A DNA stretch of 64,000 bases from assembly GCA_043811005.1 (NCBI GenBank), contig JBDRNO010000240.1:467-64466 (forward strand). Direction: 5' to 3'. Both the position numbers and the translations under genes were made by a program. The first letter of the stretch is position 1. Each line of letters starts with the position of its first letter. Shown in pieces: positions 16,069-62,709 of this stretch. The stretch comes from Bacteroidota bacterium (GTDB taxonomy: Bacteria > Bacteroidota > Bacteroidia > NORP154). The notes beneath the pieces were generated by a model. That model did no database searches, was not told where the DNA came from, and saw only the letters and a list, made by a program, of their open reading frames with translations.

Positions 16069-16090
16069 TTTAACTAAGGAGGATATAATT

Positions 16091-16309
16091 ATGGGTTATA
16101 AATGTCCATCATGCGAAAAAATTTGGCCGGATACTTTGAACCTGGCGAGGCACATATTCGGAACCGGAGACCAAGCCCATAAAGATTGGGTGAATTCAAA
16201 AGGTCTCAATTTTATTGAGCTATTGCTTCTTCAAACCATGGAACCAGGGAACAAGGGTTATAAGACTTTAGCTGATTTGCTTGAAAAAGAAGCGGAGAAA
16301 GTAGATTAG
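16091..16309 (+). CDS. small hypothetical protein with C-x2-C...H...H zinc-finger-like motif
   Basis: YKCPSCEKIWPDTLNLARHIFGTGDQAH. The ATG at 16091 lies 8 nt after AAGGAGG (16076-16082). Confidence 0.45.
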   Translation: MGYKCPSCEKIWPDTLNLARHIFGTGDQAHKDWVNSKGLNFIELLLLQTMEPGNKGYKTLADLLEKEAEKVD

Positions 16310-16404
16310 GCTCTTAGGATATAGTTATTACTACCATATTAACGATAATAATAGCTTTTGTAAAGGTTATTGTAAAATAAAAACATTAAAATAACAAAAC
16401 AATC

Positions 16405-23429: not shown

Positions 23430-23486
23430 ACTTGTAATTTGTGATTTTTAATATTCTTGAATAATCTTCTACTTTAAAAACAGACT

Positions 23487-24467: not shown

Positions 24468-24528
24468 GATATTTGGTTGGATCGGGATTTAATATTCAAA
24501 CTTGATATATTGGTAATTAATTATTTAA

Positions 24529-24711
24529 ATTTAATAATCAGATTCTGGGTTCCAGGCACTGGGTTCTGGGTTGTTGTTTTTTACTCTAACCCAAAATCAG
24601 CACATACCACCCAGTGCCCAGCAACCAGTACCCAGCAACATTATCTTATTTATACTTAACTCAATTCAATATAATTTCTATTCTTAATTAAATTACGTAA
24701 TTATGTTCTTA
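24529..24711. repeat. intergenic repeat family 1, copy A (CTGGGT/ACCCAG hairpin plus TTATTTATACTTAACTCAATTC plus TTACG.A.TTATGTTCTTA)
   Basis: Alignable end to end with 61222-61384. Shares exact blocks ACATACCACCCAGT and the 22-mer TTATTTATACTTAACTCAATTC (24646-24667 and 61319-61340). Confidence 0.85.
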
Positions 24712-25491
24712 TTTCTTCTCATCCTGATAAATTCCATAAGCTTCTTCAACGGATTTTCCATCATGAACAATTGCCCTCACTGCCTTTATCATGCCTACCG
24801 GGCAATCGCTTTGGAAAATATTCCTTCCCATATCCACTCCAACCGCTCCTTTTGAAATAGCATTAAATGCCATTTGGAGAGCATCTTTTTCCGGCTGTTT
24901 CTTGCCTCCCGCAATAACAACCGGTACGTTTCCACATGCCTCGACAATCTTTTCAAAATCCTCACAATAATATGTTTTAACCATATGTGTTCCTGTTTCC
25001 ACACATATTCTGCTGGCTAGAGCTAAATACCGTGCATCCCTTGCCATTTCTTTCCCAACAGCCGTTACCGCTAAGACGGGAATACCATATTCTTCGCCAT
25101 CATTTATGAGCTCTGATAAGTTTTCTATGGATTGGCTTTCATATTCCCCGCCAATAAATACGGAACATGTTATGGCAGATGCGTTTATCCTTATTGCATC
25201 CTCTATTGAAGTGGTAATTATCTCATCAGACAATTCTTTAAGAATACTCGAACCACCGGAAACGCGTAATATTACAGGTGCTTGCAAGGCAGGGTTTATC
25301 CAGTTTCTTAATGCTCCCCTGGTTATCATTAATGCATCAGCGTAAGGCAGTAACGGATCTGTTGTAACACTCAGGTTGCTTAAACCCGTTGTTGGCCCCT
25401 GGAAATACCCATGGTCAACTGCCAGCATAACACAATGACCCGTTTCAGGGTTAATTATCCTTGATAATCTGTTTTTCATTCCCCATTCCAT
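24709..25491 (-). CDS. DhnA/LsrF-type class I aldolase family protein
   Basis: MLAVDHGYFQGPTTGL, VKTYY and IAGGKK patterns, 260 aa. Confidence 0.7.
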   Translation of the reverse strand: MEWGMKNRLSRIINPETGHCVMLAVDHGYFQGPTTGLSNLSVTTDPLLPYADALMITRGALRNWINPALQAPVILRVSGGSSILKELSDEIITTSIEDAIRINASAITCSVFIGGEYESQSIENLSELINDGEEYGIPVLAVTAVGKEMARDARYLALASRICVETGTHMVKTYYCEDFEKIVEACGNVPVVIAGGKKQPEKDALQMAFNAISKGAVGVDMGRNIFQSDCPVGMIKAVRAIVHDGKSVEEAYGIYQDEKK

Positions 25492-25592
25492 TTTATTTTC
25501 CTCCTTTATTGTATTATTTTTTTATTAATTTTTTTGTAAGATTTTGAGTTTTAGTGATTTTGTGGCATTTTTATTTTAATAAATTTACGAAG

Positions 25593-27866
25593 TTATATTC
25601 TTAATTTTTTCAAAACCTTCTCCGGTGTAATCGGCAAAGAATCTATTTCAATCCCCAAAGCATCTGAAACGGCATTTGCTATTGCTGCTGCTGTAGGGAT
25701 CAGAGGCGCCTCCCCTACTCCTTTTGCTCCATAGGGACCTTCTTCGTCAAATGTTTCAATAGGATAGAAATGGATTTCCGGTATATCGCTAAAAGTCGGT
25801 AGTTTATAGTCGTGAAAACTCGGGTTAAGGACCATCCCGTTTTCAACGATCAATTCTTCAGTCAGTGCATATCCCATTCCCATAACTACACCGCCTTCTA
25901 TCTGTCCGGACAATCCCAGCGGATTCAACACCCGGCCAACATCCTGTGCAACGTGCACATCCAAAACCATGACATTTCCAGTTAGTGTATCCACTTCAAC
26001 TTCTATTGCTTGAGAAGCAAATGCATATGCTCCCGATACATCACCTTTAAACTCCTTATCCTGAAATTTGCTATTAGGCTCATAAAAATTTGTCACTACT
26101 GACAACTCGTTAGGCGTACTAAAATGAAGCTCCCTGACCACCTTGTCCAGGTTAATTGCCTTACCGGTTTTTTCACATATTATCTGTCCGTTTAAATATT
26201 CAAAACTCTTTGCATCACTTCCCAGGAGCCCGGCAGCCTTGGGGGAGAGTTTCTCCTTTAGCTTCTCAATTGCTCCAAGCAACGAATTGCCTGCGACAAA
26301 ACTCGTACGAGAGGCATGGACACCGACATCCCATGGCTTGACATCCGTATCAGTGTTGATCACCCTGATCTTTTCCATGTCGATACCCAGTTCTTCTGCT
26401 GCAATCATTGTCAGCACGGTCTCCGATCCTTGCCCTATTTCATTTGATCCGGTAATAATTGTAAGATAGCCAAAAGGATCAATTTTCAGGGTTGTACCAC
26501 ACCCATCCGAGCGATAGATCTTCGCTCCTCCTCCAACATGAAGCATTGATGCATAACCTAGCCCCCTTTTATATCTTTTTGATACACTTTTTTTATTTGA
26601 TTTTCCACTTTCTGCTATAACTTTTTCCAACGCCTCCTTATGCCCACAGGTTTTAAATTCAAGTCTTTGTCCGGTAATCTCACCTTTATAATTGGCATTT
26701 ATCAACCTGATCTCCGCTTTATCCATACCCAGTTCTTCTGCCATCAGGTCAATGTTTCGCTCCAGTGAAAATGTTGCCTGCGGATTTCCGTACCCCCGGA
26801 AAGAACCGGCATTAGGATTATTGGTATATACTGCACGCGCATCAAAAACACAAGCCGGCACCTGGTATAATGATGAGTATGCTTGCATCATCACAAAGGG
26901 TGTAGTGGCTCCCCAGGAAGTATAGGCACCGTTATCCATGGTGATCTGCACTTCCCTGAATGTAAATTTTCCGTCCTGATCGGCTCCGGTTGTCAACTCT
27001 ATTACCATCTGTTGTCTTGTAGGTGATGCAAGAAACTCCTCTTCCCTATCATAAATTAATTGCACCGGTTGTCCTGTTTTTATTGACAGCAAGGCACAGA
27101 TCGGTTCAAAGGGATACATATCAAGCTTACTGCCAAAACCTCCGCCAATTACAGGTTGAATGATCCTGATGTTTGACGGTTCCATCTTCAGTGAGTGAGC
27201 AATATCTCTCTGATAGAGGAACGGAACCTGAGTGGAACTGTACAGGGTCAGACGTTTTTCGATTTTTGAATAATCTGCGGTCATATTGCTCGTAGCCAAA
27301 CAACAATGAGTGACTCTAGGCAAAGTATAGCGCCTCTTCACAATACAAGCGCTTTTATTTTTTTGCTCTTGCAGGTCTCCATGTTCGTAATGATACGAGT
27401 CTGCTATATTCTTCTCCTGGTCAGCCGGAGCAAAGCGGTTTATCGGAAGGCTTTCCATTTTTAATGCTTCGAAAGGATCATAAATCCCCTCTTTGACCTT
27501 ATATTCAACTTTTATAAGTCCTAACGCTTTTTTAGCTATTTCCCTTGTTGTTGCTGCAACCGCTGCGATCTCATCACGTATACAGTTCACCTCGTCTTTT
27601 TTCAATACGGGATGATCTCTTTTGTAACTGATGTTATTGACATCAACATCATCTGCCGTAATTACACATGCTACTCCGGGAAGTTGTTTTGCTTCCGAAA
27701 CATCAACGGAAACGATCTCAGCGACAGGATGGACGGTACGCAAAATTGCACCGTAAAGCATATTTGGTAATACAATATCATGACCATATACCGCTTTCCC
27801 GGTGACCCTAAGAGCAGCATCAACCTTAGGTGTGGGTTTGCCGATTACATTGAGGTTATTTCTCAT
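25593..27866 (-). CDS. molybdopterin-binding large subunit, second xanthine dehydrogenase-family enzyme
   Basis: MRNNLNVIGKPTPKVDAALRVTGKAVYGHD N-terminus, plus IGGGFGSKL and YGAKGVGEAP. I prefer the start at 27866 over 27929. Confidence 0.85.
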   Translation of the reverse strand: MRNNLNVIGKPTPKVDAALRVTGKAVYGHDIVLPNMLYGAILRTVHPVAEIVSVDVSEAKQLPGVACVITADDVDVNNISYKRDHPVLKKDEVNCIRDEIAAVAATTREIAKKALGLIKVEYKVKEGIYDPFEALKMESLPINRFAPADQEKNIADSYHYEHGDLQEQKNKSACIVKRRYTLPRVTHCCLATSNMTADYSKIEKRLTLYSSTQVPFLYQRDIAHSLKMEPSNIRIIQPVIGGGFGSKLDMYPFEPICALLSIKTGQPVQLIYDREEEFLASPTRQQMVIELTTGADQDGKFTFREVQITMDNGAYTSWGATTPFVMMQAYSSLYQVPACVFDARAVYTNNPNAGSFRGYGNPQATFSLERNIDLMAEELGMDKAEIRLINANYKGEITGQRLEFKTCGHKEALEKVIAESGKSNKKSVSKRYKRGLGYASMLHVGGGAKIYRSDGCGTTLKIDPFGYLTIITGSNEIGQGSETVLTMIAAEELGIDMEKIRVINTDTDVKPWDVGVHASRTSFVAGNSLLGAIEKLKEKLSPKAAGLLGSDAKSFEYLNGQIICEKTGKAINLDKVVRELHFSTPNELSVVTNFYEPNSKFQDKEFKGDVSGAYAFASQAIEVEVDTLTGNVMVLDVHVAQDVGRVLNPLGLSGQIEGGVVMGMGYALTEELIVENGMVLNPSFHDYKLPTFSDIPEIHFYPIETFDEEGPYGAKGVGEAPLIPTAAAIANAVSDALGIEIDSLPITPEKVLKKLRI

Positions 27867-27894
27867 TTGGTTATGTTTCAGACATATTATAAGT

Positions 27895-28371
27895 TTAATT
27901 TTCTTTAAACAATGCTTCAACAGCATCAATAATCTTCACATAACCGGTACAGCGGCACAGGTTGCCTTCAAGTTCTTTCCTGATCTCTTCCCTGCCGGGA
28001 ACAACACCGTTAGCTTCATATTGTTTATGAAACGATTTTATTAACATCGCCATACCTGGTGAGCAAAAACCACATTGAACCGCACCTTTAGCGATCATTG
28101 CTTCCTGTACAGCATCAAGAGATTCTCCGTTTGCAGATAAACCTTCAATGGTCGTAACTTCTTTTCCATCAATATTAACAGCCGGATATAAGCATGAATT
28201 GACTGCATTACCATCCACCAGCACAGTACAGGCGCCACATTCACCTTCAAGACATCCGGGTTTGGTTCCTTTCAGGGACAATTCTTCTCTTATAAGATCT
28301 ATCAATAATAATGACGGCTTAATGTTCTTTTTGATCTTTTTGCCGTTTATGATGAATTCGATTTCTAACAT
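27895..28371 (-). CDS. [2Fe-2S]-binding small subunit, second Mo hydroxylase
   Basis: GCLEGECGACTV, QCGFCSPGM and CRCTGY. Confidence 0.85.
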   Translation of the reverse strand: MLEIEFIINGKKIKKNIKPSLLLIDLIREELSLKGTKPGCLEGECGACTVLVDGNAVNSCLYPAVNIDGKEVTTIEGLSANGESLDAVQEAMIAKGAVQCGFCSPGMAMLIKSFHKQYEANGVVPGREEIRKELEGNLCRCTGYVKIIDAVEALFKEN

Positions 28372-33492: not shown

Positions 33493-36400
33493 TCACGAAG
33501 TTAAGTTCTTCTTCTCCACCCACTGAATTGACCTGTTCGGGCAAACGTCAATACACAATCCGCATAGGTTACATATAGTTTCATCTATCACGACCTTTGC
33601 ATCTACTTTTGTCATAGCGGGACAGCCGAAGTTATCAATACAATGATTGCACCAGTAACATGCCTGGTAAAGGTCGAATTGCTGTAATTGTTGTGAAATA
33701 TTTTGGGTTATCTCATTAATCCGAATATCATTCGGATCTACATTTATCCGAATATTATTCGGGTTTACTTTTGATCGAATATTATTCGGACTTACATTTA
33801 GCTTATCTAAGGCATCCTGTCCTTCATAAGCAATTGAATAATCCTCCAGCAATTGCCTAATACCTATTGCTGCTCTTTTGCCGCTTGCAATAGCCCCAAT
33901 GACGCTTATATGGTTTCCTGAACAAGCATCACCTGCTACGAACACCACTGGTTCCGACTGTATCTGCCCCTCTCTCTTCGGTACGACCTGGCTCAGGGTG
34001 GGCTTTTTATATTTTACAAGTCCGTTTTTCTTCTCAATTTTTATTCTTATGTCTTTATCAAATTGCAAAGAATTGATGCCGCTAAAAAGTGTCTTATCCC
34101 CTCTTTGCCCTATTGCCACTATCACATAATCGCATACGATTTTTTGCAAATGTTTTTTGGTTTTAAAAGAACTTAATTTAAAACTAATCTTACCATCAGC
34201 TTTTACCGGGCAGTGTTCAACAAAGCTGTCAGGAACTAATTCGATACCTTCCTCCACAGCATGTTCAATTTCTTCGGCAAAAGCGGGCATTTCTTCAGTG
34301 GTTTCAATGCATGAAACGATAACTCTATTTTTGCTATCCAGCCGTTTTGCCGTTCTCGCAGCATCAATGGCGCTGTTGCCGCCACCTATCAATAAAATTG
34401 AGGAAGCGGGATTCAACTCAAGGGTTTTAAAATAATATTCCCTCAAAAAAGAGAGTGCATCAAACCGTTTCTCACGGGGAATATTCTCTTCAATAATATC
34501 AAGCGTTAATGATTTCGGCATACCTGTTGCCAGTATCACACCGTCATATTTCCCGGTTAATTTGTCAAGAGAGATATCTTTCCCCAGGGAGATGTTATAT
34601 TTAAACTTCACACCTAATTCGCCGAGCTGGGATACTTCAAAGTCAAACCCTTTCTTATCCATACGAAAATCAGGAATAGCATACCTGATAAGCCCCCCTC
34701 CTTGTTTTTCCTTTTCAAAAACTGTTACCTTATAGCCGGCTTGGATAAGGTCATAAGCAGCGCTTAGCCCAGCAGGTCCTGCACCGACTATGGCGATATC
34801 TTTATTTTTCTTTTCAGATGACTTAACGCGTTCTTTGAGAGCGGAAAAATCATAAAAATTCTCATCAATTGAAGATACAAATTTCTTCAATTGCTTAACA
34901 GGTACGACCGGGCCGGTCTCTTTCCCTGTATACAATTCACAGGGACGGTGGCAAATGTCACCACATGTTCGGGCAAACAATATCTTATCCTTAACGATCT
35001 CGAGAGCAGATTTGTAATTTCGATCCATAATGGAATAAAAGAAACTGTGATTACAGATGTTTGCAGGGCATGGCTGCATTTCGCCGGGGATCGAGTACTC
35101 AGCGCTTATTTTTGCTTTTGCCCTTCTCAAATTGCTCCCGGGAGAGTATGTTCTTGAGCATGGCAATGTGTGGTCAAGGTGATTGCCACAATTGGTACAG
35201 AGGTTATGGTCAACAGTGATAATAGCATTTTTCGGGATCTTAGTTTTATGATCAGGATGAAAAATGCAAGGTGATGTGGATACGATCACAGAGACGCCTT
35301 TTACCAAACTGGCATCCCTGATCTTTTCATAGCTGTTTTTCACATCAAACGGATCAATTGTTTCCACATATTGAATCCCCATTCCTTTTAAGAGAGGGGG
35401 AATGTCAATTTCCCGGTATTTGTCAGAGCGGGAAGCTCCGGGATGGTCCTGTCCTCCTGTCATTCCGATTGTACGGTTGTCAAAAATGACGACCATGATA
35501 TTTGCATTAGTATATACGGCATTCATCATGGATGCGATACCTGAGTGGAAGAATGTGCCGTCACCGATAAGGGCTATGGTTTTAGCCCCCCCCCACTTAC
35601 CCGATGTGGAGGAGGAACATAGGGCTTCGGAAAGACCCTGTGCCATGGAGATGCTCATTCCCATGTGGTGAATGGTATCTATCATCTGAATTGGTGGCAG
35701 GGCGCCTAAGCCGAAACAGCCAATGTCACCGCATAGTACTACATTATTGTTATCACGTGGGATGGATAATTTCAAAGCATAGAATGTTGCTCTGTGCGGA
35801 CAACCAGGACAAAGTGAAGGTGGGCGGGGTGGCAGGATAACCTCTCCCACTCCAGACAGGGCAGGGACAAGCGACACCTTCTCCGGGGGAGGGTGGGAGA
35901 GAGAAACAACCGGTGGAAGTTCTTTCTTCCGTTTTAACGGTTGCCCGACAAACTCCTCAACAGCTTGTTTCACAATGTCAATGGAAAATTCGCCAGTGGT
36001 TGCAAGGGAAGAAAATCCTTTACCGAAAATATTGCAATCAATATTATGTTTTTGTGCAATAACGCGCACCTGATCCTCAACTATTGGATCTAATTCCTCA
36101 AGAACTAATATGCGTGGCACGGCTTGAAGCCGTGTCATGCTTTTTTCGGTTTCTAATATGCGTGCCACGGTTTGGAACCGTGTCACGCTTTTGAGAAAAG
36201 GAATGACATTATTTTCAGGAAATGGATGGATCAATCCCAATTTTAAAACTTTAATCTTCCCTGTGAGCTTGTTATCGTACAAAATCTCAGAAAGATAAAC
36301 AGATGAAACACCGCTGCTTATAATACACAGAGAAGGTAAAAATTTCAACTTTCCAAAAGTTTTAGAACTTTTGGAAAGTTCTATATTATGTTTTTCAAAA

Positions 36401-37143
36401 AAAGGAGTAATTATATTGCTGTATAGCTTTTCCAATAACTTTTGATGTGCTGTGGCAGTGCGGGCAGGGATGTTTATATGTCCGGGCATTTTTTCAAATT
36501 TGCCTGGCTGGTTATTAAAAGAAAACTCATTGTAAAAAACCATTCCCCTGCTATGTGACACCCGTGTGGTCATCCTGACTATTACCGGGAGCTTAAGTTT
36601 CCCGGAAAGCACAAAGGCATCCTTTGTCATTGAATAGGCATCCTCGGGAAATGCAGGATTAAAGACAGGTACTGATGCCATCTTTCCCCAGTAGCGGCTG
36701 TCCTGTTCGTTTGAACTGGAATGGCAGCCAGGATCATCGCAGACAACAATGACCAAAGGAGCACAAATCGTCTGGTAGGTAATGGACATCAATGGGTCGG
36801 AAGCGACATTCATCCCCACATTTTTCATACAGCACATTGCACTTTTGTTACCTATGGTATAAGCAATGGCTTTCTCCAAAGCAACTTTTTCGTTTACACT
36901 GTACTCAAAATAAATTGGATTTGATGTCAGTTCAGGAAATTTCTTTTTGTGTCCGGGGTCATTTTGAAATTCACTGACATGATTAAATACCTCAGAAATT
37001 TCAGTAGAAGGGGTGCCTGGATAAGCAAAAACGCCCTGAACCCCGGCTTCAATTGCCCCCCTGGCAATCGCTTCGTTACCGATCGGACAAGTCTTTTGGG
37101 GTTTTTTATAGGAGGTTAGTATTTTGATTATTTTGTCGAACAT
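33493..37143 (-). CDS. iorA: indolepyruvate:ferredoxin oxidoreductase alpha subunit with an inserted GltD/NfnB-like FAD/NAD(P) oxidoreductase module and C-terminal 2x[4Fe-4S] domain
   Basis: N-terminal IorA TPP domains (GVFAYPGTPSTEI; GDIGCFGLG...IGDGTFFHSG...GMTGGQ). The middle is GltD-like (CGDICHRPCE; IAIVGAGPAGLSAAYDL; LLIGGGNSAIDAAR; VFVAGDA). The C-terminus carries CNLCGLCIDVCP. There are four in-frame hairpin/repeat inserts. Confidence 0.75.
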   Translation of the reverse strand: MFDKIIKILTSYKKPQKTCPIGNEAIARGAIEAGVQGVFAYPGTPSTEISEVFNHVSEFQNDPGHKKKFPELTSNPIYFEYSVNEKVALEKAIAYTIGNKSAMCCMKNVGMNVASDPLMSITYQTICAPLVIVVCDDPGCHSSSNEQDSRYWGKMASVPVFNPAFPEDAYSMTKDAFVLSGKLKLPVIVRMTTRVSHSRGMVFYNEFSFNNQPGKFEKMPGHINIPARTATAHQKLLEKLYSNIITPFFEKHNIELSKSSKTFGKLKFLPSLCIISSGVSSVYLSEILYDNKLTGKIKVLKLGLIHPFPENNVIPFLKSVTRFQTVARILETEKSMTRLQAVPRILVLEELDPIVEDQVRVIAQKHNIDCNIFGKGFSSLATTGEFSIDIVKQAVEEFVGQPLKRKKELPPVVSLSHPPPEKVSLVPALSGVGEVILPPRPPSLCPGCPHRATFYALKLSIPRDNNNVVLCGDIGCFGLGALPPIQMIDTIHHMGMSISMAQGLSEALCSSSTSGKWGGAKTIALIGDGTFFHSGIASMMNAVYTNANIMVVIFDNRTIGMTGGQDHPGASRSDKYREIDIPPLLKGMGIQYVETIDPFDVKNSYEKIRDASLVKGVSVIVSTSPCIFHPDHKTKIPKNAIITVDHNLCTNCGNHLDHTLPCSRTYSPGSNLRRAKAKISAEYSIPGEMQPCPANICNHSFFYSIMDRNYKSALEIVKDKILFARTCGDICHRPCELYTGKETGPVVPVKQLKKFVSSIDENFYDFSALKERVKSSEKKNKDIAIVGAGPAGLSAAYDLIQAGYKVTVFEKEKQGGGLIRYAIPDFRMDKKGFDFEVSQLGELGVKFKYNISLGKDISLDKLTGKYDGVILATGMPKSLTLDIIEENIPREKRFDALSFLREYYFKTLELNPASSILLIGGGNSAIDAARTAKRLDSKNRVIVSCIETTEEMPAFAEEIEHAVEEGIELVPDSFVEHCPVKADGKISFKLSSFKTKKHLQKIVCDYVIVAIGQRGDKTLFSGINSLQFDKDIRIKIEKKNGLVKYKKPTLSQVVPKREGQIQSEPVVFVAGDACSGNHISVIGAIASGKRAAIGIRQLLEDYSIAYEGQDALDKLNVSPNNIRSKVNPNNIRINVDPNDIRINEITQNISQQLQQFDLYQACYWCNHCIDNFGCPAMTKVDAKVVIDETICNLCGLCIDVCPNRSIQWVEKKNLTS
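33721..33789. repeat. 3 x 27-bp tandem repeat, each unit carrying the palindrome CCGAATAT[CT]ATTCGG, in frame in CDS
   Basis: Palindromes at 33721-33735, 33748-33762 and 33775-33789. Period is 27 nt, or 9 codons. Translated as SPNNIRSKVNPNNIRINVDPNDIRIN. Confidence 0.9.
35842..35901. repeat. GC-rich inverted repeat CTCTCCCAC...GTGGGAGAG in frame in CDS
   Basis: 9-bp perfect arms plus TCC/GGA, with a ~34-nt spacer. Translated as LSHPPPEKVSLVPALSGVGEV. Confidence 0.8.
36105..36200. repeat. 2 x 48-bp tandem repeat, each with hairpin CACGG[CT]TT[GT]GAA[GA]CCGTG, in frame in CDS
   Basis: Units start at 36105 and 36153 with the same CTAATATGCGTG. Hairpins at 36118-36134 and 36166-36182. 48 nt equals 16 codons. 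Confidence 0.9.
36347..36380. repeat. perfect palindrome AACTTTCCAAAAGTT-TTAG-AACTTTTGGAAAGTT in frame in CDS
   Basis: 15-bp arms identical to the intergenic copy at 6339-6371. Translated as ELSKSSKTFGKLKF. Confidence 0.9.
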
Positions 37144-43201: not shown

Positions 43202-44422
43202 TTATCTTTGTTTTAAAGTTCTTATTTGCTTTAAAATTTCAGGTATTTCATAATAGTCTTCCACCCAAAGTGTTTTGACACCAAATGATGATGAATCATT
43301 TTCTTCAAATGTTTCAATTGTCTTTATCAGAAAATTAACCGTTTCATCAAAATTCAATTGTGCTTTAACTTTTTCATCAAAAAGAATTTTATTATCCTCT
43401 AAAATGATTTTCAGCTTGTTTCCTATTTCAGTTGATTTATACTTTTTCTTGAAGATGTAATGAAACTCTTCTTTATCTCCTTTTTGAATTCTTGCAATAT
43501 CTAGTAATCTTCTAATATTTGGATCCGTTAAAGAAGATCCGATAAATAGACAAGTGAAGTCTCTAAATTTGTTAATTTGGACGATATTATTCCAACTGTA
43601 AATGTCGGTATATTGTTTATGATATACATTCTCCCCAAATGTTATTTGATTACTATCATTAAGCTTACTTTTTTCTGGAAGAAAACCATGCACGTGATAT
43701 ATTGGTAATTCGCCTGGTTCAGGATTCATACCAACACCATATATTGGTCTAAACGGAATTTCAACATTGGTTTTCAATAAATGCTGTTCAACAATATCAT
43801 CGAAATTGTAAGTAATAATTGAATCGATGTTTGGACTTTTTCCTGCAGCTACACAAAATTTAACGATTTCATCCATAATTGATGAAGTCTTTGAAATATT
43901 TAAGTTTTCATATAGAACCTTTCTAACTGCTTCTTCAAATGAACTGTTTTTCTTTTCATAATATTTTTGAAGGTAACGTCCTGCTATTAAAGGGCTCGGA
44001 GAGAACAATTCTGTGAAAAGCTTTGATAATGCATTTGAAGCACTTTGTTCTTTTTCAATTGTAGTTACCATAATTTTTTGCAAGAGAACATCCCAACTAG
44101 GCAGACCGTAATTCATAGAGATACCTGCCCCCATTACGAAAACAAGCTTTTCGTTTCGGTACGCTTTATTGATTTTATTAATTATTTCTTGTCGACTGAC
44201 CTTTACTTGAAATTCCTTGAACTTATCTAACTCAAGTTCTGTTTTCTTTAAAATATTTGAAGTAAAAATTTGTTCAAGTTGTCGTTTTAATTCCTCCTGT
44301 TTTTTCCTTAATTCATCTTCTAATTGATGTTGAATCTTATTCCTGGCTTCTAACTCTTTTTTTGAAATTCTAGTCACTTCAACTTCGCTTGGTGTTTTTT
44401 CAACCATTTTTTTCTTTGTCAT
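43202..44422 (-). CDS. SIR2-like (SIR2_2) domain protein with N-terminal coiled coil, defence-type NADase candidate
   Basis: LVFVMGAGISMNYGLPSWDVLL, PIYHVHGF and FIGSSLTDPNIRRLL motifs. The N-terminal ~80 aa are E/K/L/Q-rich. Confidence 0.7.
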   Translation of the reverse strand: MTKKKMVEKTPSEVEVTRISKKELEARNKIQHQLEDELRKKQEELKRQLEQIFTSNILKKTELELDKFKEFQVKVSRQEIINKINKAYRNEKLVFVMGAGISMNYGLPSWDVLLQKIMVTTIEKEQSASNALSKLFTELFSPSPLIAGRYLQKYYEKKNSSFEEAVRKVLYENLNISKTSSIMDEIVKFCVAAGKSPNIDSIITYNFDDIVEQHLLKTNVEIPFRPIYGVGMNPEPGELPIYHVHGFLPEKSKLNDSNQITFGENVYHKQYTDIYSWNNIVQINKFRDFTCLFIGSSLTDPNIRRLLDIARIQKGDKEEFHYIFKKKYKSTEIGNKLKIILEDNKILFDEKVKAQLNFDETVNFLIKTIETFEENDSSSFGVKTLWVEDYYEIPEILKQIRTLKQR

Positions 44423-44495: not shown

Positions 44496-44957
44496 TCACC
44501 CCAAAGATAGTGAATCTAATGGATTTTCAATTTTATTTATCACATTTATTGCTACATGTGTATAAATTTCTGTGGTTTTACTGGATTTATGACCCATTAG
44601 GGTCTGAATATACCTAAGATCCACGCCACTTTCAAGCAAATGAGTTGCAAAGCTGTGCCTGAGTACATGCGGGGTAACATCATGTTTAATACGAGCTCTT
44701 TTTGCAGTTTTTTTTACAATATTTCCAACACTTTTGCCGGAGTATTTACCACCAAATTGACCCTCTATCAGATATTCCTTTGGCTGATAAATTTGATAGT
44801 ACTTTCTGAGGTCAAGCAGCAAGTTCTCACTAAGTAAAGTAAATCTATCTTTACTAAAATTAAACAGGCGCTTATTGAAAAATTTCAATAAAGCCGGTAA
44901 AACAACTATCAGGAAAGAAAACTTACTAAAAGCAGGATTTAATCCGAGGTATTTCAC
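44496..44957 (-). pseudogene. tyrosine recombinase (XerC/D-like integrase), C-terminal fragment only
   Basis: Homology starts near [12 protein letters not shown] and contains [39 protein letters not shown]. The N-terminal ~170 aa of the family are absent. The upstream part of the ORF is non-homologous read-through. Confidence 0.7.
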
Positions 44958-45087: not shown

Positions 45088-45133
45088 AAAACATGAAGTG
45101 AAATAATTACCTGCGTGAGGGATGGGAGCGACA

Positions 45134-45275
45134 TCCTTTTGTCTGGCTGGCTTAGTTTTGTTGATTTACTCACTCTATTGTTTGTTTTTAAAGGTGTTCG
45201 TGAATGCTTCGCATTTTGAGGGGCGACAGGGGAGCCACGAAAAATCTTTACAAAACTTGCCAGCCAGACAAAAGA
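45134..45275. other. GC-elevated structured element: 16-17-bp perfect inverted repeat enclosing about 108 nt with internal hairpins (possible ncRNA or MITE)
   Basis: CCTTTTGTCTGGCTGGC (45134-45150) pairs with GCCAGCCAGACAAAAG (45259-45274). Inner stems are TTCGTG/CACGAA and AATGC-TTC-GCATT. Confidence 0.5.
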
Positions 45276-45368
45276 TATAGCGGACAGCCCGGCCCCGCAC
45301 ATAATTTTGGTGCTTAAAATTTCATCTGCCAACTGATATGTTACAGATAATTATGATAATGTTAATTG

Positions 45369-48511: not shown

Positions 48512-51500
48512 TTGGACTACAATTTTACAGAAATAGAAAAAAAGTGGCAGAAATACTGGAGTGAGAACAAGACCTTTAAAGCGGATAATCCCGGTAGCAA
48601 AGGGGCTGATAAGCCCAAATTTTATGTTTTGGATATGTTTCCCTATCCTTCCGGAGAAGGGCTGCATGTTGGGCATCCTTTAGGGTACATTGCATCTGAT
48701 GTATATGCCCGATATAAGCGGCTTAAAGGATTTAATGTACTGCATCCCATGGGGTATGATGCTTTTGGCTTGCCTGCAGAGCAATATGCCATTGAAACAG
48801 GTCAGCATCCTGCAATTACTACCCAAAATAATATTAAGCGGTACCGGGAACAAATGGATAAGCTCGGCTTTTCATTTGACTGGGACAGGGAGGTTAGAAC
48901 GTGCGATCCGAAGTATTATAAATGGACGCAGTGGATATTTGTTCAATTATTCAATTCCTGGTATAACAATAAAACAGATAAAGCTGACCCCATTGAGACA
49001 TTGATCTCTGAATTTAAAAAAAATGGAGATCAAAATATTGATGCAGCTAATACTCCTCCCCGAAACGTCTCTAATGGAACAGAGTTACGATCCTTTACCG
49101 CTAAACAGTGGAAGGGGTTTAGTGAAAAACACCAACAAGAAATTCTGTTGCACTATCGCCTGGCATATTTGTCGAAAACGATGGTAAACTGGTGTCCCAG
49201 GTTAGGAACAGTTCTTTCAAATGAGGAAGTACAGAACGGTCTTTCCGAGAGAGGCGGCTATCCGGTTGAAAGAAAACTGATGAAACAATGGACTTTAAGA
49301 ATGACCGCTTATATTGAAAGGTTATTAAAAAGTTTGGAAGAAATTGACTGGACCGATGCTCTTAAAGACATGCAGCGTAACTGGATAGGCCGTTCTGAAG
49401 GAGCTATGATGAAATTCCACCTCTCCCCCGGCCCCTCTCCGAAGGAGAGGGGTGAAATAAGGCCCGGGTACTATACAACTGATGGACAAATGTGGAACCT
49501 TCTGCAAGATAAAGCCAAAGAAATGCGTAGTAACCCTACCCAGGCAGAAAATGCTCTGTGGCAGATGTTGAGAAGAAAGAACACCGGCTATAAAATTCGC
49601 AGGCAACAAATCATTGACCGTTTTATTGTGGATTTCGTTTGTTTGGAAAAAAAGCTGGTAGTTGAAGTTGATGGAGACATTCATGATCTACAAAAAGAAA
49701 AGGATGAAGAAAGAACCTCATTTTTAAATGAAAGAGGATTCAAAGTAATACGCTTCCTGAATAAGGAGATAATCGCAAATACAGATGAGATTCTTGCAAT
49801 AATCGAGGATGAATTAAAAAAAAGACCTTCCTTTAAGAAACAAGAAGTCCTCCCCGCCAGCTGGCGGGAGGATTTAGGAGGGGTGATAGAAGTTTTTACC
49901 ACGCGTCCCGACACTATTTTCGGAGCAACATTTATGGTCTTAGCTCCCGAACACGAATTGGTTGAGAAGATAACTACTGATGAACGCAGGCAGGCAGTGG
50001 AAAAATATGTAAAAGCAGCTTTAAATCGCTCTGAGAGAGACCGGTTGGCTGATGTAAAAATCGTTTCCGGGGAGTTTACCGGTGCATTTGCCATCCATCC
50101 TTTTACTGGCGATAAAATTCCAATTTGGGTAGCGGATTATGTGCTGGCTGGTTACGGGACTGGTGCTATCATGGCTGTTCCGTCAGGTGACCAAAGAGAC
50201 TGGAATTTCGCCAAACATTTTGACCTGCAGATAATCCCGGTTATTTCCGATAGTGACATTACGGAAGGTGCAAATGAGAATGAGGACGGGGTGATGATCA
50301 ATTCAGACTTTATGAATGGCATGAAAATTCCTGATGCTATTAAAGCAGTTATTGAGAAAATCAAAAAAAAAAGGAATAGGAAAGCATAAAGTGAATTACA
50401 AGATAAGGGATGCTGTTTTCAGCCGGCAACGCTATTGGGGTGAGCCGTTTCCCGTTTATTATAAAAATGGTATGCCTTATATATTGGATGAGAGTGAACT
50501 GCCTCTTGTATTACCCATTGTAGATAAATATTTACCAACAGAAACAGGTGAACCGCCATTGGCAAGAGCCGAAAACTGGAAAACAAAAGACGGCTATGAT
50601 CTGGATTGCCATACAATGCCAGGTTGGGCGGGCTCTTCATGGTATTATCTCAGGTATATGGATCCCCACAATGAAAATGAATTTCTGACCAAAAAGGCAG
50701 TTGATTATTGGCAAAATGTTGATCTGTACATCGGTGGAGCCGAGCATGCAACTGGACACCTTATGTACGTGCGTTTCTGGACTAAGTTCCTATATGACCT
50801 TGGTGTCATTCCTTTTGACGAACCGGCTAAAAAGTTGATCAATCAAGGGATGATTCAGGGAATGTCTGCTATCATATATAAGTGCAAAGAAAAAGATACA
50901 TTCGTATCAAGCGATCTGATAAAAGATGCTGATAAAAGTGACTATTTGCCGGTTAGGGTGCACATTGATCTTATTGCAGGAGATAACATAGTAAATGATC
51001 ATGGATTTAAAAATTGGAAACCCGAATATAAAGATGCAAAATTTATTCATAATGAGAATGGAGAATTTCGTTGTGACAGGGAAGTAGAAAAAATGTCTAA
51101 ATCAAAGCATAATGTTGTAAATCCCGACAACATTATTTTACAATACGGAGCGGATACCTTAAGGTTATACGAGATGTTCCTTGGTCCTATTGAGCAGGCA
51201 AAACCCTGGGATACACACGGCATTGAAGGAGTTTCTCGCTTCATGAGAAAATTATGGAGATTATACTACGATAGAGAGGATAAATTCATAGTCTCTGATG
51301 ATAAACCTACCAATAAAGAATTAAAAATATTGCACAGAACTATTAAGAAAGTACAGGAAGACATTAAGCGCTATTCCTTTAATACGGGTGTAAGTGCATT
51401 GATGATCTGTGTTAATGAACTAACTGAATTAAAATGTAACAAAAAAGCTATTTTAGAGGATCTGGCAGTTATTATCTCTCCTTACGCCCCTCATATTACA

Positions 51501-51794
51501 GAGGAATTATGGTCATCATTCAGAGGGATTTCGGATGATAAACAATTCAAAGAAAGTATAAGTAAGGCGGCTTTCCCGCAGTATAAAGAAGAATATATTG
51601 CTGAAGAAACGTGTACATATCCTGTTTCTTTCAATGGTAAAAAGCGATTCACTATAGACCTTCCGGTAGACATGCCCCCTGAAGAAATTGAAAAGGAGGT
51701 GCTGACATACGAAAAGAGCAAAAAATGGCTGAACGGAAAAAAACCTAAAAAGGTGATTATTGTTAAAAAAAGGATTGTTAATATTGTGATTTAA
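48512..51794 (+). CDS. leuS: leucine--tRNA ligase, split into two ORFs by a frameshift in an A10 run and carrying an in-frame DUF559 insert
   Basis: [21 protein letters not shown] (HIGH), [41 protein letters not shown] and KMSKSK are all present. ORFs 48512..50389 and 50334..51794 join if one A of 50363-50372 is removed. TTG start. Confidence 0.9.
49421..49882 (+). other. 462-nt in-frame insert in leuS encoding a complete DUF559 (Vsr-like PD-(D/E)XK endonuclease) domain, bounded by GC-rich hairpins
   Basis: Insert peptide [11 protein letters not shown]...[58 protein letters not shown]...[20 protein letters not shown]...[10 protein letters not shown]. Left hairpin CCCCTCTCC-GAA-GGAGAGGGG (49432-49452). 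Right 16-nt palindrome CCCGCCAGCTGGCGGG (49853-49868). Confidence 0.8.
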
Positions 51795-56236: not shown

Positions 56237-56731
56237 CTAATCTCTTTTTTTAATGGGAGTAGCATCCTTGGTCACTTTTTTTAGCGGAACAGTTTCTTCT
56301 TTTACGGGAACTGTCTCTTCTTTTGGCTGAACAGGTTTAGGTTCTACTGTTCCTTTGATTGTTAATTTTTTGCTTGGTGTTATAGCATTTGATGTGATAG
56401 TTATTGGTTTGGTGAATTGTCCAACCCGAGTAGTTGTGTATTTTACTTTAATTATGCCTGAATCACCTGGCATAATGGGTTCTCGTGGCCAACTGGGCAC
56501 GGTGCACCCTCATGTCCCCTTTGCATTCGAAATAATTAACGGCTCTCTTCCTGTGTTAGTGAATTTGAATTCACGCTCACCATTACTGTTATATTCAATA
56601 GTGCCGTAATCAATTACTTCTGTTTCAAAAACAATTTCAGGGGCATTGATATTTTCCTTTGTCGCTTCCTGTGCAGAAACTCCATAAAACACACACAGGA
56701 ACAACACTGAAATTAACAGTACTTTTTTCAT
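56237..56731 (-). CDS. DUF1573 domain lipoprotein/secreted protein with in-frame TGA (candidate selenocysteine) at 56510-56512
   Basis: ORFs 56510..56731 and 56237..56500 are in the same frame, separated only by TGA GGG TGC ACC. The joined sequence reads ..PLIISNAKGT-[TGA]-GCTVPSWPREPIMPGDSG.. against the family pattern SCGCTVP.WP..PI.PG. Confidence 0.6.
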
Positions 56732-57128
56732 CTTTTTTGGTTTTTAACGCCTGCTTGCTTTCGCGTAGTTTCAGCGAAGCAAAGTCGGCAGAAATGGTTA
56801 ATAAAATTGGTTAACTAATTTAGTAAAAAAAAACAGCAATTAAATCCCTTTATGCTTTAAATAATTATCAAAACATAAGTTGCAGGGGGAAAGAAAATTA
56901 TGAAAGCATTTCATATACCCGGCAAAATTACAAATTTTGTTTTTCTTTAGAATAAAACAATAAAAAAAATTGACAAAATCAAATTTTGCAATTTGCATTA
57001 TGTTTTTATTTAATCAACCTAATAAAGCAAGAATCAACAACACCCCACCTATAATAAGGATAATTATTATATCTCATATATTATCAGGCACTTTCCCCTT
57101 CCAGTTCATAATGTATTTTTATGATTAG

Positions 57129-57602
57129 TTACTCTTTTTTAATAGGAGTAGCACCCTCAGTTACTTTTTTCACCGGAACCGTCTCTTCTTTTGGCTGCAC
57201 GGGTTTAGGTTTTACTGTTCCTTTGATTGTCAACCTTTTATTAGATGTTTTGGCATTTGATGTGATAGTTATTGGTTTGGTGAATTGTCCAACCCGCGTA
57301 GTCGCATATTTTACTTTAATTATACCTGAATCACCTGGCATAATGGAATCTCGTGGCCAACTGGGCACGGTGCACCCTCATGTCCCCTTTGCATTCGAAA
57401 TAATTAACGGCTCTTTACCTGTGTTGGTGAACTTGAATTCACGCTCACCATTACTGTTATATTCAATAGTGCCGTAATCAATTACTTCTGTTTCAAAAAC
57501 AATTTCAGGAGCATTTACATTATTTTCCTTTGTCGCTTCCTGTGCAGAAGCTCCATATAACATACACAGGAACAACCATGAAGTTAACATTACTTTTTTC
57601 AT
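57129..57602 (-). CDS. DUF1573 domain paralog with in-frame TGA (candidate selenocysteine) at 57378-57380
   Basis: Same architecture as 56237..56731. ORFs 57378..57602 and 57129..57368 are in frame, 9 nt plus the TGA apart. Confidence 0.6.
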
Positions 57603-57930
57603 CTTTATTGGTTTTTAAAACCTGCTTGTTTGCTTTCGCGTAACTTCTGCGAAGCAAAGTAAACAGATATGGTTAATAAATTGGTTAGTTAATTTAGTAA
57701 AATTCGTCACAATTCTTCTATCTCTTCAATCATATGAACTTATGCATCATATACAACGTAATCGCTATCAGTACAACGAAAATTTTTATTAAAGTTTTAA
57801 TTTGCTCCTTTTTCATAATTCAATATAAGTCCAATTAAAGAATTGCTGTTATCATAATAAACAGCAATAAAATTCCCCCTATAATTTGAACAGCTATCAA
57901 ACCACAGGAAAAAAGGTAGAAATAAAATGG

Positions 57931-61416: not shown

Positions 61417-62709
61417 TTGAAACTTAAAACTTCAAACCTGAAACTATACATAGGTGTAGGAATTGGAATATTATTTCTTCTCCTTATTATTGATTATATA
61501 GTCAAGAATAAAAGTCCGGTTTTCCTTGACTCATTACACAGCGAAGTTGATAGCCCTTCAACAGAAGTTATTGCCACCCCTCAAAACTATTATGTGGAAA
61601 AAGGGATCGTTAGCGATTCACTATTGATCTATGAAGGTACTGTAAAACGCGATCAGAACCTTTCCGAAATATTGCTGAAGTATGATGTTTCCTATGCTGT
61701 TATTGATAAGCTGGCAAAAAGGTCAAAAGAAATCTTTGATGTGAGAAAGATCAATACCGGTAAAAAGTACCTTGTCTATTATTCGGAAGATTCATTGCAA
61801 AAAGCACAATGCTTTATTTACGAGGTGGATGCGGTAAATTATGTTGTATTCAATTTGGGAGATTCCCTGCATATCTATAAAGATGAAAAAGAGGTTGAAA
61901 CCAGTATACGAACAGCTTCTGGTGTTATTAACTCTTCTTTATGGCAAACAATGGATGATAATAAACTCAATCTGAACCTTCCTTTGGAATTGGCTGAAAT
62001 TTATGCCTGGGCAGTGGATTTTTACAGGATACAAAAGGGAGATGCCTTTAGTGTGATCTATGAAGAAAAATTTGTCGAGAACAAATCAATTGGTATTGGC
62101 AAAATACACGCATCATGCTTTACACATAGCAATGAAGATTTTTATGCGATTTATTTCAAGCAGGGTAAGGAAGATGATTATTTTGATGAGAATGCCCAGA
62201 GTTTAAGAAAAGCTTTTCTCAAGTCGCCTTTAAAATATTCACGGATAAGTTCGGGATACAGCTTAAAGAGGTTTCATCCTGTTCAAAAGAGATACAAGGC
62301 ACATTTAGGTGTTGATTATGCAGCACCCAAAGGTACGCCAATCATGGCCACAGGAGATGGAGTTGTTACTGAAGCACGATACAAAGGAGGTAATGGAAAT
62401 TACGTTAAAATAAGGCATAATAGCGTGCATTCCACACAATATCTGCACATGTCAAAAATTAAAAAAGGCATAAGACCGGGAGTAATGGTTAAACAGAAAG
62501 ATATAATCGGATATGTGGGCAGCACAGGTCTGTCAACCGGCCCGCATGTCTGTTACAGGTTCTGGAAAAACGGTAAGCAGGTAAATCCATTAAGGATCAA
62601 GATGCCACCATCTAATCCTGTTAAGCAGGAGTATATGGAAGAGTACAACAAAGTAAAAGAGAAGATGATAAAGGCATTGGAGAAAATAGATCAAAATGTT
62701 GAAGCATGA
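61417..62709 (+). CDS. M23 family metallopeptidase with N-terminal membrane anchor
   Basis: HLGVDYAAPKGTPIMATGDG and GYVGSTGLSTGPHVCY motifs. TTG start. Confidence 0.8.
   Translation: MKLKTSNLKLYIGVGIGILFLLLIIDYIVKNKSPVFLDSLHSEVDSPSTEVIATPQNYYVEKGIVSDSLLIYEGTVKRDQNLSEILLKYDVSYAVIDKLAKRSKEIFDVRKINTGKKYLVYYSEDSLQKAQCFIYEVDAVNYVVFNLGDSLHIYKDEKEVETSIRTASGVINSSLWQTMDDNKLNLNLPLELAEIYAWAVDFYRIQKGDAFSVIYEEKFVENKSIGIGKIHASCFTHSNEDFYAIYFKQGKEDDYFDENAQSLRKAFLKSPLKYSRISSGYSLKRFHPVQKRYKAHLGVDYAAPKGTPIMATGDGVVTEARYKGGNGNYVKIRHNSVHSTQYLHMSKIKKGIRPGVMVKQKDIIGYVGSTGLSTGPHVCYRFWKNGKQVNPLRIKMPPSNPVKQEYMEEYNKVKEKMIKALEKIDQNVEA

What the first reader, a model, noticed from the sequence alone, without database searches (positions are those of the whole stretch)
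56237..57602. Two tandem DUF1573 paralogs keep an in-frame TGA at the first Cys of the family CGC motif: candidate new selenoprotein family
Each gene appears in the ORF track as two same-frame ORFs, and the only thing between them is TGA GGG TGC ACC. Joined, they read ..EPLIISNAKGT-TGA-GCTVPSWPR(E/D)(P/S)IMPGDSGIIKVKY... As I recall it, the DUF1573 family has ..SCGCTVP.WP..PI.PG.. at this point, so the TGA replaces a conserved Cys. That is the classic Cys/Sec signature.

Both paralogs keep the TGA. Downstream of it they differ by synonymous changes (TAC/TAT Tyr, ACT/ACG Thr, GGC/GGT Gly) and conservative replacements, which suggests the 3' part is still under protein-level selection. TGA is an ordinary stop elsewhere in the window (12943-12945, 33493-33495, 62707-62709).

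A SECIS-compatible hairpin starts 9 nt after the UGA in both copies: CGUG-C-CC AGUU GG-C-CACG (plus-strand 56484-56501 and 57352-57369). Its GU-containing apical loop lies about 19 nt from the UGA.
Basis: partly seen in the sequence, partly recalled or inferred. Interest (0 to 1): 0.85.

Follow-up and report, generated by a model that had tools for sequence, protein, structure and literature searches.

The report
Tandem DUF1573 genes with in-frame TGA
Two neighbouring genes for small secreted proteins in an uncultured Bacteroidota genome each carry a TGA exactly where relatives have a conserved cysteine; this most likely encodes selenocysteine, but the protein family has been listed as a selenoprotein family since 2007-2008, so it is a new member and not a new family.

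Summary
Two minus-strand genes (56237-56731 and 57129-57602) each have one in-frame TGA. Joined, each is a full-length DUF1573 (PF07610) protein. The TGA aligns with the invariant first Cys of the S-C-G-C-T motif.

The claim of a new family is wrong. DUF1573 is OS_HP2, described as a selenoprotein by Zhang and Gladyshev in 2007 and 2008 (motif UxC/UGC). It appears in the 2022 and 2026 reviews and has an NCBIfam model, NF041425.

Evidence for selenocysteine at this locus:
- Both paralogs keep the TGA, and all indels between them are in frame.
- dN/dS downstream of the TGA is 0.17 (P=4e-5 against neutrality).
- One distant TGA-bearing ortholog exists (L008), next to a selenium-dependent xanthine dehydrogenase gene.
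- A hairpin sits after the TGA and is absent from the closest Cys form.

Evidence against, or missing:
- No sel genes or tRNA-Sec in the window, and the rest of the genome could not be searched.
- The hairpin is only borderline for the bacterial SECIS model and is not significant against synonymous-codon shuffles.
- Two pattern scans of 185,579 species genomes gave no TGA form.
- A 66-nt identical tract around the TGA allows spread by gene conversion.
- The assembly has a homopolymer frameshift in LeuRS.
- The 2006 and 2015 surveys found no Sec decoding in Bacteroidetes.

Verdict: probably a real selenoprotein pair (about 0.55), a new member of a known kind.

The parts
56237..56731 (-). DUF1573 gene copy A. 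164 codons including one in-frame TGA. Signal peptide, PapD/ASH-like beta-sandwich domain, Pro/Lys-rich tail.
   Evidence: fold of the closest Cys homologue
56510..56512 (-). In-frame TGA of copy A (codon 74), aligned with the first Cys of the CGC motif. Candidate Sec codon.
56477..56509 (-). Candidate SECIS of copy A. Outer stem GGGU/ACCC (+1..+4 with +30..+33) encloses the hairpin CGUG-C-CC AGUU GG-C-CACG (56484-56501).
   Evidence: Fold -13.3 kcal/mol. The hairpin is absent from the closest Cys form, L026. Synonymous shuffle p=0.027.
56451..56476 (-). Second hairpin AUUAUGCC-N10-GGCAUAAU, +34..+59 after the UGA. Probably not part of the recoding signal.
   Evidence: It is also present in the Cys-form gene of L026. 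Its loop lies 41 nt from the UGA, outside the 16-37 nt range.
56748..56790 (-). Conserved hairpin in the 5' leader of copy A, about 17 nt upstream of the ATG. Role unknown.
   Evidence: -15.9 kcal/mol, z -1.9
57129..57602 (-). DUF1573 gene copy B. 157 codons including one in-frame TGA. 84% aa identity to copy A over the whole protein and 92% over the domain.
57378..57380 (-). In-frame TGA of copy B (codon 75). Candidate Sec codon.
57352..57369 (-). Candidate SECIS hairpin of copy B, identical in sequence to that of copy A. The outer stem is weakened (GGG/UCC).
   Evidence: fold -8.6 to -11.1 kcal/mol; synonymous shuffle p=0.23
57620..57668 (-). Conserved hairpin in the 5' leader of copy B.
   Evidence: -17.2 kcal/mol, z -3.3, 0 of 200 shuffles fold as well

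Best explanation
The two genes are Sec-containing members of the DUF1573 (PF07610) family, the family earlier named OS_HP2, in an uncultured Bacteroidota genome. Each UGA is read as selenocysteine by SelB/Sec-tRNA(Sec), helped by the stem-loop that starts just after the UGA. This gives a secreted protein of about 140 residues after signal-peptide cleavage. It has a PapD/ASH-like beta-sandwich fold with a U-G-C motif in the turn between two strands, where relatives have C-G-C or C-S-C.

Shown: the TGA sits at the family's known Sec/Cys position; the downstream reading frame is selected; a second, distant lineage has the same TGA.

Inferred: that the UGA is decoded as Sec; that the hairpin is the SECIS; that the genome has selA, selB, selC and selD; and that the UxC pair acts as a redox or metal/chalcogen-binding site. 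The biochemical function of the family is unknown.
For: (1) The TGA aligns with the invariant first Cys of the CGC motif in all 120 close Cys homologues (GS-CGC 116, AS-CGC 4).
(2) Published DUF1573/OS_HP2 selenoproteins carry the same motif type (UxC / UGC) in the same Pfam family.
(3) Downstream of the TGA the two copies differ by 17 synonymous and 11 non-synonymous changes. dN/dS is 0.17, and P(17 or more synonymous of 28 under neutrality) is 4e-5. All indels (3, 21 and 3 nt) are in frame.
(4) A degenerate TGA-specific DNA pattern found one more true case among JGI metagenome contigs. L008 5748-6320 has its TGA at 6084-6086 and is otherwise intact and conserved along its length. It is only 58% identical to the window domain, whereas Cys forms are 81% identical to the window and 69% to L008. 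These are therefore two separate TGA lineages.
(5) In L008 the adjacent gene passes NCBIfam's equivalog cut-off for selenium-dependent xanthine dehydrogenase (TIGR03311, 898 against 830 bits). That organism probably handles selenium.
(6) The window hairpin has a 4-nt loop AGUU with G in second position. Against the closest Cys form (L026) it is created by three synonymous changes plus K->R. Both TGA lineages have R where 101 of 120 Cys forms have K.
(7) TGA is a normal stop elsewhere in the window, so a genome-wide reassignment is excluded.
(8) NCBI's own annotation has exactly three protein accessions (MFH1321379-81) between TrkA (..378) and the ClC channel (..382). That fits both DUF1573 genes plus the 122-aa ORF being annotated as proteins and not as pseudogenes. 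None of the obvious fragment products is in the protein collection. This point is circumstantial.
Against: - No tRNA-Sec and no selA/selB/selD in the 64-kb window or in L008. The rest of the genome could not be reached.
- Surveys of 2006 and 2015 found no Sec-decoding trait in Bacteroidetes (PMC1794560, PMC5322559).
- Two pattern scans of one genome from each of 185,579 species gave no true TGA form, so the form is very rare.
- The hairpin is marginal for the published bSECIS model. It has 2 bp, then a C-C mismatch, then 4 bp, and the loop starts 15-16 nt from the UGA. No contiguous stem of 4 bp or more qualifies. It is not clearly beyond synonymous recodings (p 0.027, 0.23; L008 0.15).
- L008's stem also occurs in a Cys-form gene (L054).
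- The TGA lies in a 66-nt tract that is identical between the copies, and dS is lower 5' of it (0.12 against 0.36). Gene conversion could therefore have copied a recent nonsense mutation.
- Disrupted alleles of this family do occur in metagenomes. L054 has TAA at the preceding codon in two samples; there are also frameshifts and a deletion.
- The contig has a frameshift in the essential LeuRS gene at an A10 run, so its base calls are not beyond doubt.
Confidence: 0.55

Rival explanations
1. The TGAs are ordinary nonsense mutations. One copy suffered TGC/TGT->TGA, a single-base change, and gene conversion or recent duplication copied it into the other. Both genes are young pseudogenes or make only the 73/74-residue N-terminal fragment. 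The purifying-selection signal downstream dates from before the mutation.
For: - A 66-nt identical tract spans the TGA (P about 0.001 for so long a run under uniform spacing), and dS is threefold lower 5' than 3'.
- Other disrupted DUF1573 alleles exist, including TAA one codon upstream of an intact CGC in two samples (L054), three frameshifted products and a deletion.
- No TGA form in 185,579 species genomes.
- No Sec machinery in view.
- The phylum is reported to lack Sec decoding.
- The window holds other gene remnants: a CoA-transferase fragment and a truncated integrase.
Against: - The stop falls exactly on the one codon known to be Sec in this family, although dozens of codons per gene can mutate to a stop in one step.
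- There is no second lesion in either copy or in L008.
- Both copies keep start codon, signal peptide, leader hairpin and in-frame indels.
- Several substitutions near the TGA build a hairpin that the closest Cys form lacks.
- L008 shows the same TGA in a distant lineage beside a selenium-dependent enzyme gene.
Confidence: 0.25
2. The TGAs are a systematic sequencing or consensus error, and the true codon is TGC or TGT. Because 66 nt around the codon are identical in both copies, a context-dependent error would hit both.
For: - LeuRS, an essential gene, is frameshifted at an A10 homopolymer (50363-50372). This is typical of error-prone consensus sequence.
- The sequence context around the two TGAs is identical.
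Against: - The required error is a transversion to A, not a homopolymer indel.
- The same TGA occurs in a different nucleotide context in L008. Its truncated product is held by three sources (JGI/IMG, Logan, ENA).
- S->T, K->R and the synonymous changes that build the stem accompany the TGA.
Confidence: 0.08
3. The UGA is read through without the Sec machinery. A near-cognate tRNA (Trp or Cys) is used at low efficiency, giving a small amount of full-length protein. This would keep the 3' part under selection in a genome that lacks sel genes.
For: - It is compatible with purifying selection downstream.
- It is compatible with the weak SECIS statistics.
- It fits the reported absence of Sec decoding in the phylum.
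Against: - No positive evidence.
- It does not explain why the stop sits on the catalytic-type Cys codon in two lineages.
- Trp at an invariant Cys would probably be harmful.
- Such leaky nonsense alleles are usually transient.
Confidence: 0.07

Closest known systems
OS_HP2 / DUF1573 domain-containing selenoprotein (pfam07610; motif UxC/UGC). Zhang and Gladyshev 2007 (Olavius algarvensis delta1/delta4 symbionts) and the GOS selenoproteome 2008. NCBIfam NF041425.
   Same: Same Pfam family (PF07610, 116 bits). The same motif type, U-G-C, stands in place of the family's conserved C-x-C.
   Different: - The score against the NCBIfam OS_HP2 model is 52 bits, below the cut-off of 100, so this is a different subfamily.
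- The host is Bacteroidota; the Olavius examples of 2007 are from deltaproteobacterial symbionts.
- There are two tandem Sec paralogs here.
- The closest relatives are all Cys forms.
Cys-form DUF1573 proteins of Bacteroidota, for example P0001 (GCA_004196255.1 contig SDBU01035621.1).
   Same: - 71% identity over the full length and 81% over the domain.
- Same signal peptide, domain and Pro/Lys-rich tail.
- Tandem pairs of DUF1573 genes are common (L050, L051, L052).
   Different: - They have TGC/TGT where the window has TGA.
- They have K where the window and L008 have R after the W-P.
- They lack the +9..+26 hairpin.
Bacterial SECIS consensus (bSECISearch model, as summarised in PMC13188914, Fig. 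2).
   Same: - A stem-loop lies inside the coding region directly after the UGA.
- The apical loop is small (4 nt), with G in second position followed by U.
- The overall fold is at or below -7.5 kcal/mol.
   Different: - The upper stem is interrupted by a C-C mismatch after 2 bp.
- The loop starts at +16, the lower limit of the 16-37 nt range.
- The fold is not significantly beyond synonymous recodings.
- L008 has no comparable hairpin.

Membership tests
Pfam PF07610 DUF1573 | Whole-protein score above the gathering threshold, with full domain coverage | tested here: met
   116 bits against 26.1, profile 1-98/98, for both copies with Cys written for the TGA
Pfam PF07610 DUF1573 | Conserved C-x-C motif between two strands of the beta-sandwich | tested here: met
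   TGA-GGG-TGC aligns with the invariant C-G-C. Tandem partner genes have C-S-C. The AF2 model of P0001 puts the motif in the turn between strands 67-72 and 77-80.
NCBIfam NF041425 OS_HP2 family (seleno)protein | Score at or above the curated cut-off (100 bits) | tested here: not met
   52.1 bits, E 6e-14, profile 15-98/98. Related, but outside that subfamily model.
Bacterial selenoprotein gene | In-frame UGA aligned with Cys in homologues, with conservation on both sides | tested here: met
   dN/dS downstream is 0.17, P=4e-5.
Bacterial selenoprotein gene | Independent UGA-containing orthologues | tested here: inconclusive
   One true case, L008, in JGI metagenome contigs, phylogenetically separate from the window copies. 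None in 185,579 species genomes. A single case could also be a chance nonsense allele; compare L054.
Bacterial selenoprotein gene | [quoted passage not shown] | tested here: inconclusive
   The loop and the energy criteria are met. The stem is interrupted and the spacing is at the lower limit. Synonymous-codon shuffles give p 0.027 (copy A), 0.23 (copy B) and 0.15 (L008).
Bacterial selenoprotein gene | selA, selB, selD and tRNA-Sec in the same genome | not testable with these tools
   None in the 64-kb window: ARAGORN found 0 tRNAs, and Pfam scans of all ORFs of 120 aa or more found no Sel families.
Bacterial selenoprotein gene | Selenium in the protein (75Se labelling or mass spectrometry) | not testable with these tools
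   Requires an experiment.

The most novel reading that the evidence does not exclude
A deep-branching Bacteroidota lineage really decodes UGA as selenocysteine. Its LeuRS is only about 62% identical to the nearest sequence in the protein collection, and the phylum was reported in the 2006 and 2015 genome surveys to lack the Sec trait altogether. On this reading Cys->Sec replacement at the C-x-C motif of DUF1573 arose at least twice within the phylum, in organisms that already use selenium for molybdenum hydroxylases, and works with a SECIS that is minimal or atypical.
Probability: 0.4. Interest if true: 0.55.

Novelty: new member of a known kind. Interest (0 to 1): 0.35.

Why it matters
If the UGA is Sec, this adds a Bacteroidota branch and a tandem pair to a selenoprotein family known so far from only a few sequences, the first of them from deltaproteobacterial symbionts. 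It would also point to Sec decoding in a phylum that the classic surveys scored as Sec-free. DUF1573 has no known function. A Cys/Sec pair at its C-x-C motif is the best clue that the motif is a redox-active or chalcogen/metal-binding site and not a structural one. In practice, annotation pipelines will split these genes or call them pseudogenes unless the family model is extended beyond the OS_HP2 subfamily.

Tried and rejected
- Genome-wide TGA reassignment: rejected. TGA ends 12 of 41 domain-supported ORFs.
- Other selenoprotein genes in the window: none. I scanned for every in-frame stop flanked by 50 or more codons on each side. Only the two DUF1573 genes are credible; the candidates at 2778 and 63683 are not.
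- Rfam, at gathering thresholds and at permissive thresholds around the locus: nothing relevant.
- tRNA-Sec in the window and in L008: none.
- Exact look-ups meant to identify the source contig in the contig index failed. The source was identified only through protein names and accessions.
- The first, stricter TGA pattern on genome contigs gave 0 hits. The looser pattern gave 23 hits, all high-GC chance matches. On metagenome contigs, 24 of 25 hits were chance.
- A search with the N-terminal fragment, looking for more TGA-truncated forms, gave none. P0252 is a deletion, P0257 is a TAA allele, and the others are frameshifts or contig ends.
- The second, perfect 8-bp hairpin (+34..+59) was rejected as the SECIS. 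It is also in the Cys form, and it lies too far from the UGA.
- Literature searches for Sec decoding in Bacteroidota after 2015 gave nothing usable.
- No solved DUF1573 structure was found by sequence. The fold search returned only PapD/ASH-like domains with no catalytic analogue.

Full report
OBSERVATION

On the minus strand there are two tandem genes, 56237-56731 and 57129-57602. Each is listed as two same-frame ORFs separated only by TGA (plus-strand TCA at 56510-12 and 57378-80), followed by GGG TGC ACC. With Cys written for the TGA, each product matches Pfam DUF1573 over the whole profile (1-98/98, E about 1e-33, 116 bits against a cut-off of 26). In alignments with 22 and then 46 close homologues the TGA column is the first Cys of S-C-G-C-T-V-P, which is invariant or nearly so. 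All 120 best homologues have [GA]S-CGC at that place.

SOURCE

The LeuRS fragment of the window is 100% identical to NCBI protein MFH1321374.1, 'MAG... [Bacteroidota bacterium]', on a contig of 65,070 bp. The next best LeuRS is only 62-63% identical. A Flavo-1 RNA, a T9SS sorting domain and the Bacteroidota/Bacteroidia labels of the DUF1573 hits agree with that phylum. The window has 37% G+C. TGA ends 12 of 41 domain-supported ORFs, so the code is standard.

IS IT A NEW FAMILY? NO.

- The 2022 and 2026 reviews of prokaryotic selenoproteins list 'DUF1573 domain-containing protein, pfam07610, UGC' (PMC9312934, PMC13188914).
- The GOS selenoproteome table lists 'OS_HP2, pfam07610, UxC', with 2 Sec sequences and 354 Cys homologues (PMC2398784).
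- OS_HP2 was first described in the delta1 and delta4 symbionts of Olavius algarvensis (PMC1976440).
- NCBIfam holds NF041425 'OS_HP2 family (seleno)protein'. The window protein hits it at 52 bits, below its cut-off of 100.

The window genes therefore belong to the wider Pfam family but not to that curated subfamily.

EVIDENCE THAT THE 3' HALF IS TRANSLATED

The copies are 90% identical in DNA. Downstream of the TGA they differ by 17 synonymous and 11 non-synonymous changes (dN/dS 0.17). The probability of 17 or more synonymous changes out of 28 under neutrality is 4e-5. All indels are multiples of three.

The caveat is that the TGA sits in a 66-nt tract with no difference at all, 34 nt before the TGA and 29 nt after it. 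In addition, dS is 0.12 upstream of the TGA against 0.36 downstream. Gene conversion may have homogenised this part, so the TGA in both copies cannot be counted as two independent observations, and its age is unknown.

OTHER TGA FORMS

A degenerate pattern specific for TGA-GGN-TGY-ACN...CCN...CCN...CCN-GG was run on the JGI metagenome contigs. It gave 25 hits, of which 24 are high-GC chance matches and one is real. The real one is L008 (Ga0256913_10001021), gene 5748-6320 with TGA at 6084-6086. It reads ...KEPLILSNVRGS-U-GCTVPTWPRQPVLPG... and is conserved to its end.

Over the 100-residue domain, the window copy is 81% identical to the Cys form P0001 but only 58% identical to L008. L008's nearest relatives are Cys forms at 69%. 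These are two separate TGA lineages. L008's truncated N-terminal product is held by three sources.

Two scans of one genome from each of 185,579 species, one with a stricter and one with the same pattern, gave no true hit. A protein search with the N-terminal fragment found no further TGA-truncated form. It did find other broken alleles: L054 has TAA at the Ser codon directly before an intact TGT-GGT-TGT, seen in two samples; L053 has a deletion; three products are frameshifted. Disrupted alleles of this family are therefore not rare, which weakens the weight of the single L008 case.

SECIS

The hairpin CGUG-C-CC AGUU GG-C-CACG spans +9 to +26. Its loop has G in second position followed by U. 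In copy A an outer stem GGGU/ACCC encloses it. The fold is -13.3 kcal/mol for copy A and -8.6 to -11.1 for copy B.

In the closest Cys form (L026) the same codons read ACU GUU CCU AGU UGG CCC AAA. Three synonymous differences plus K->R make the stem in the window, and the Cys form cannot form it. Both TGA lineages have R at this position, where 101 of 120 Cys forms have K. Local folds of the three TGA forms (-11 to -13 kcal/mol) are all stronger than those of five Cys forms (-2 to -9).

Against this:
- The published bSECIS model asks for an upper stem of 4-16 bp and 16-37 nt between UGA and loop (PMC13188914). Here the stem next to the loop is 2 bp, then a C-C mismatch, and the loop starts at +16. 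A strict scan for contiguous stems of 4 bp or more finds nothing suitable.
- Recoding the same peptide with synonymous codons gives folds as stable in 2.7% of trials for copy A, 23% for copy B and 15% for L008.
- L008's stem GGUUGC/GCAGCC also occurs in the Cys-form gene of L054.
- The perfect 8-bp hairpin further downstream is also in the Cys form and lies too far from the UGA.

The SECIS evidence is compatible with Sec but weak.

SEC MACHINERY

There is no tRNA in the window or in L008. No SelA, SelB or SelD domain appears in any ORF of 120 aa or more. The source contig is not in the contig index, so the rest of the MAG could not be inspected. The surveys of 2006 and 2015 state that Bacteroidetes lack the Sec-decoding trait, although many members have the SelD-dependent selenouridine trait (PMC1794560, PMC5322559).

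There are two circumstantial points in favour:
- In L008 the gene next to the TGA-bearing DUF1573 gene passes the NCBIfam equivalog cut-off for selenium-dependent xanthine dehydrogenase (TIGR03311, 898 against 830 bits). A D-hydantoinase and an SsnA-like gene sit beside it.
- NCBI's annotation has exactly three protein accessions between TrkA (MFH1321378) and the ClC channel (MFH1321382). That fits the two DUF1573 genes and the 122-aa ORF all being annotated as proteins. None of the plausible fragment products is in the collection.

ASSEMBLY QUALITY

LeuRS is split by a frameshift at an A10 run (50363-50372). The contig therefore carries at least one probable consensus error. A substitution error at both TGAs, which share an identical context, cannot be excluded without reads. 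However, it would have to be a transversion, and L008 shows the same TGA in a different context.

PROTEIN

An AlphaFold2 model of the closest Cys homologue (mean pLDDT 84.7, core above 90) is a PapD/ASH-like beta-sandwich. The C-G-C sits in the turn between strands 67-72 and 77-80. The nearest solved folds are HYDIN/ASH/PapD-like domains and a Porphyromonas protein of unknown function. No DUF1573 structure was found by sequence. Tandem partner genes in Cys-form loci carry C-S-C at the same place. The conserved C-x-C, replaced by U-x-C here, suggests a redox or metal/chalcogen-binding site. This is inference only.

VERDICT

The most likely reading (about 0.55) is a pair of Sec-encoding DUF1573 genes: new members, in a new phylum and subfamily, of an already described selenoprotein family. 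The main rival (about 0.25) is a young nonsense allele spread by gene conversion. Sequencing error (about 0.08) and SECIS-independent read-through (about 0.07) follow. The decisive test is a search of the complete MAG for selA, selB, selC and selD, together with a read pile-up at the two TGAs.

Noticed in passing
window 48512-51794 (+), A10 run at 50363-50372: Leucyl-tRNA synthetase is split into two overlapping ORFs in different frames by a frameshift at a run of ten A. NCBI annotates two proteins, MFH1321373 and MFH1321374. This is probably a consensus error and so a warning about base quality in this contig. The first part also carries a DUF559/restriction-endonuclease-like insertion (aa 332-435), which some other Bacteroidota LeuRS share (P0152, P0203, P0212).
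   Followed up: partly
L008 6475-9027 (-), 2854-5593 (-): The only other TGA-bearing DUF1573 gene found lies next to a gene that passes NCBIfam's cut-off for selenium-dependent xanthine dehydrogenase (TIGR03311, 898 against 830 bits). A D-hydantoinase and an SsnA-like amidohydrolase sit beside it. This is a purine-degradation cluster of the type linked to the selenium-cofactor trait.
   Followed up: partly
L054 145-600 (ENA ERZ27250226; also JGI 3300072015): A DUF1573 allele with TAA in place of the Ser codon directly before an intact TGT-GGT-TGT. The rest of the reading frame is intact, and the allele is seen in two samples. It cannot be Sec, and it shows that young nonsense alleles occur in this family.
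   Followed up: partly
window 56748-56790 and 57620-57668 (-): A conserved, stable hairpin (CUUUGCUUCGC...GCGAAAGCAA) lies in the 5' leader of both DUF1573 genes, about 17 nt before the ATG. For copy B the z-score is -3.3. It was not seen upstream of the Cys-form gene in L026. It may be a regulatory element or a terminator.
   Followed up: partly
window 12073-16956 (+) and 22547-28371 (-): Two operons for xanthine dehydrogenase / 4-hydroxybenzoyl-CoA reductase-like molybdenum hydroxylases (FAD, 2Fe-2S and Mo subunits; CoxG). None reaches an NCBIfam cut-off (best 722 against 995 bits). Nearby are an IOR-alpha/GltD-like fusion of 1216 aa (33493-37143), a POR gamma subunit and a SufS-like protein of 493 aa. 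Together these suggest an anaerobic life style.
   Followed up: partly
window 11115-11489 (+): A CoA-transferase family III ORF of only 124 aa covers profile positions 2-72 of 366. It is a gene remnant, with no continuation in another frame.
   Followed up: partly
window 45105-45298 (+): A Flavo-1 RNA (RF01705) scores 43.8 bits, just above the gathering score. It lies beside a truncated integrase (44496-44957) and a SIR2_2-domain gene (43202-44422). An IS1-type transposase is at 2127-2780.
   Followed up: no
L050 6001-6884, L051 187-1081, L052 5488-6435: Tandem pairs of DUF1573 genes are the rule in Cys-form loci as well. In two of the three loci the partner is a more divergent paralog with C-S-C instead of C-G-C. 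In the window both partners are the CGC type and both carry the TGA.
   Followed up: partly
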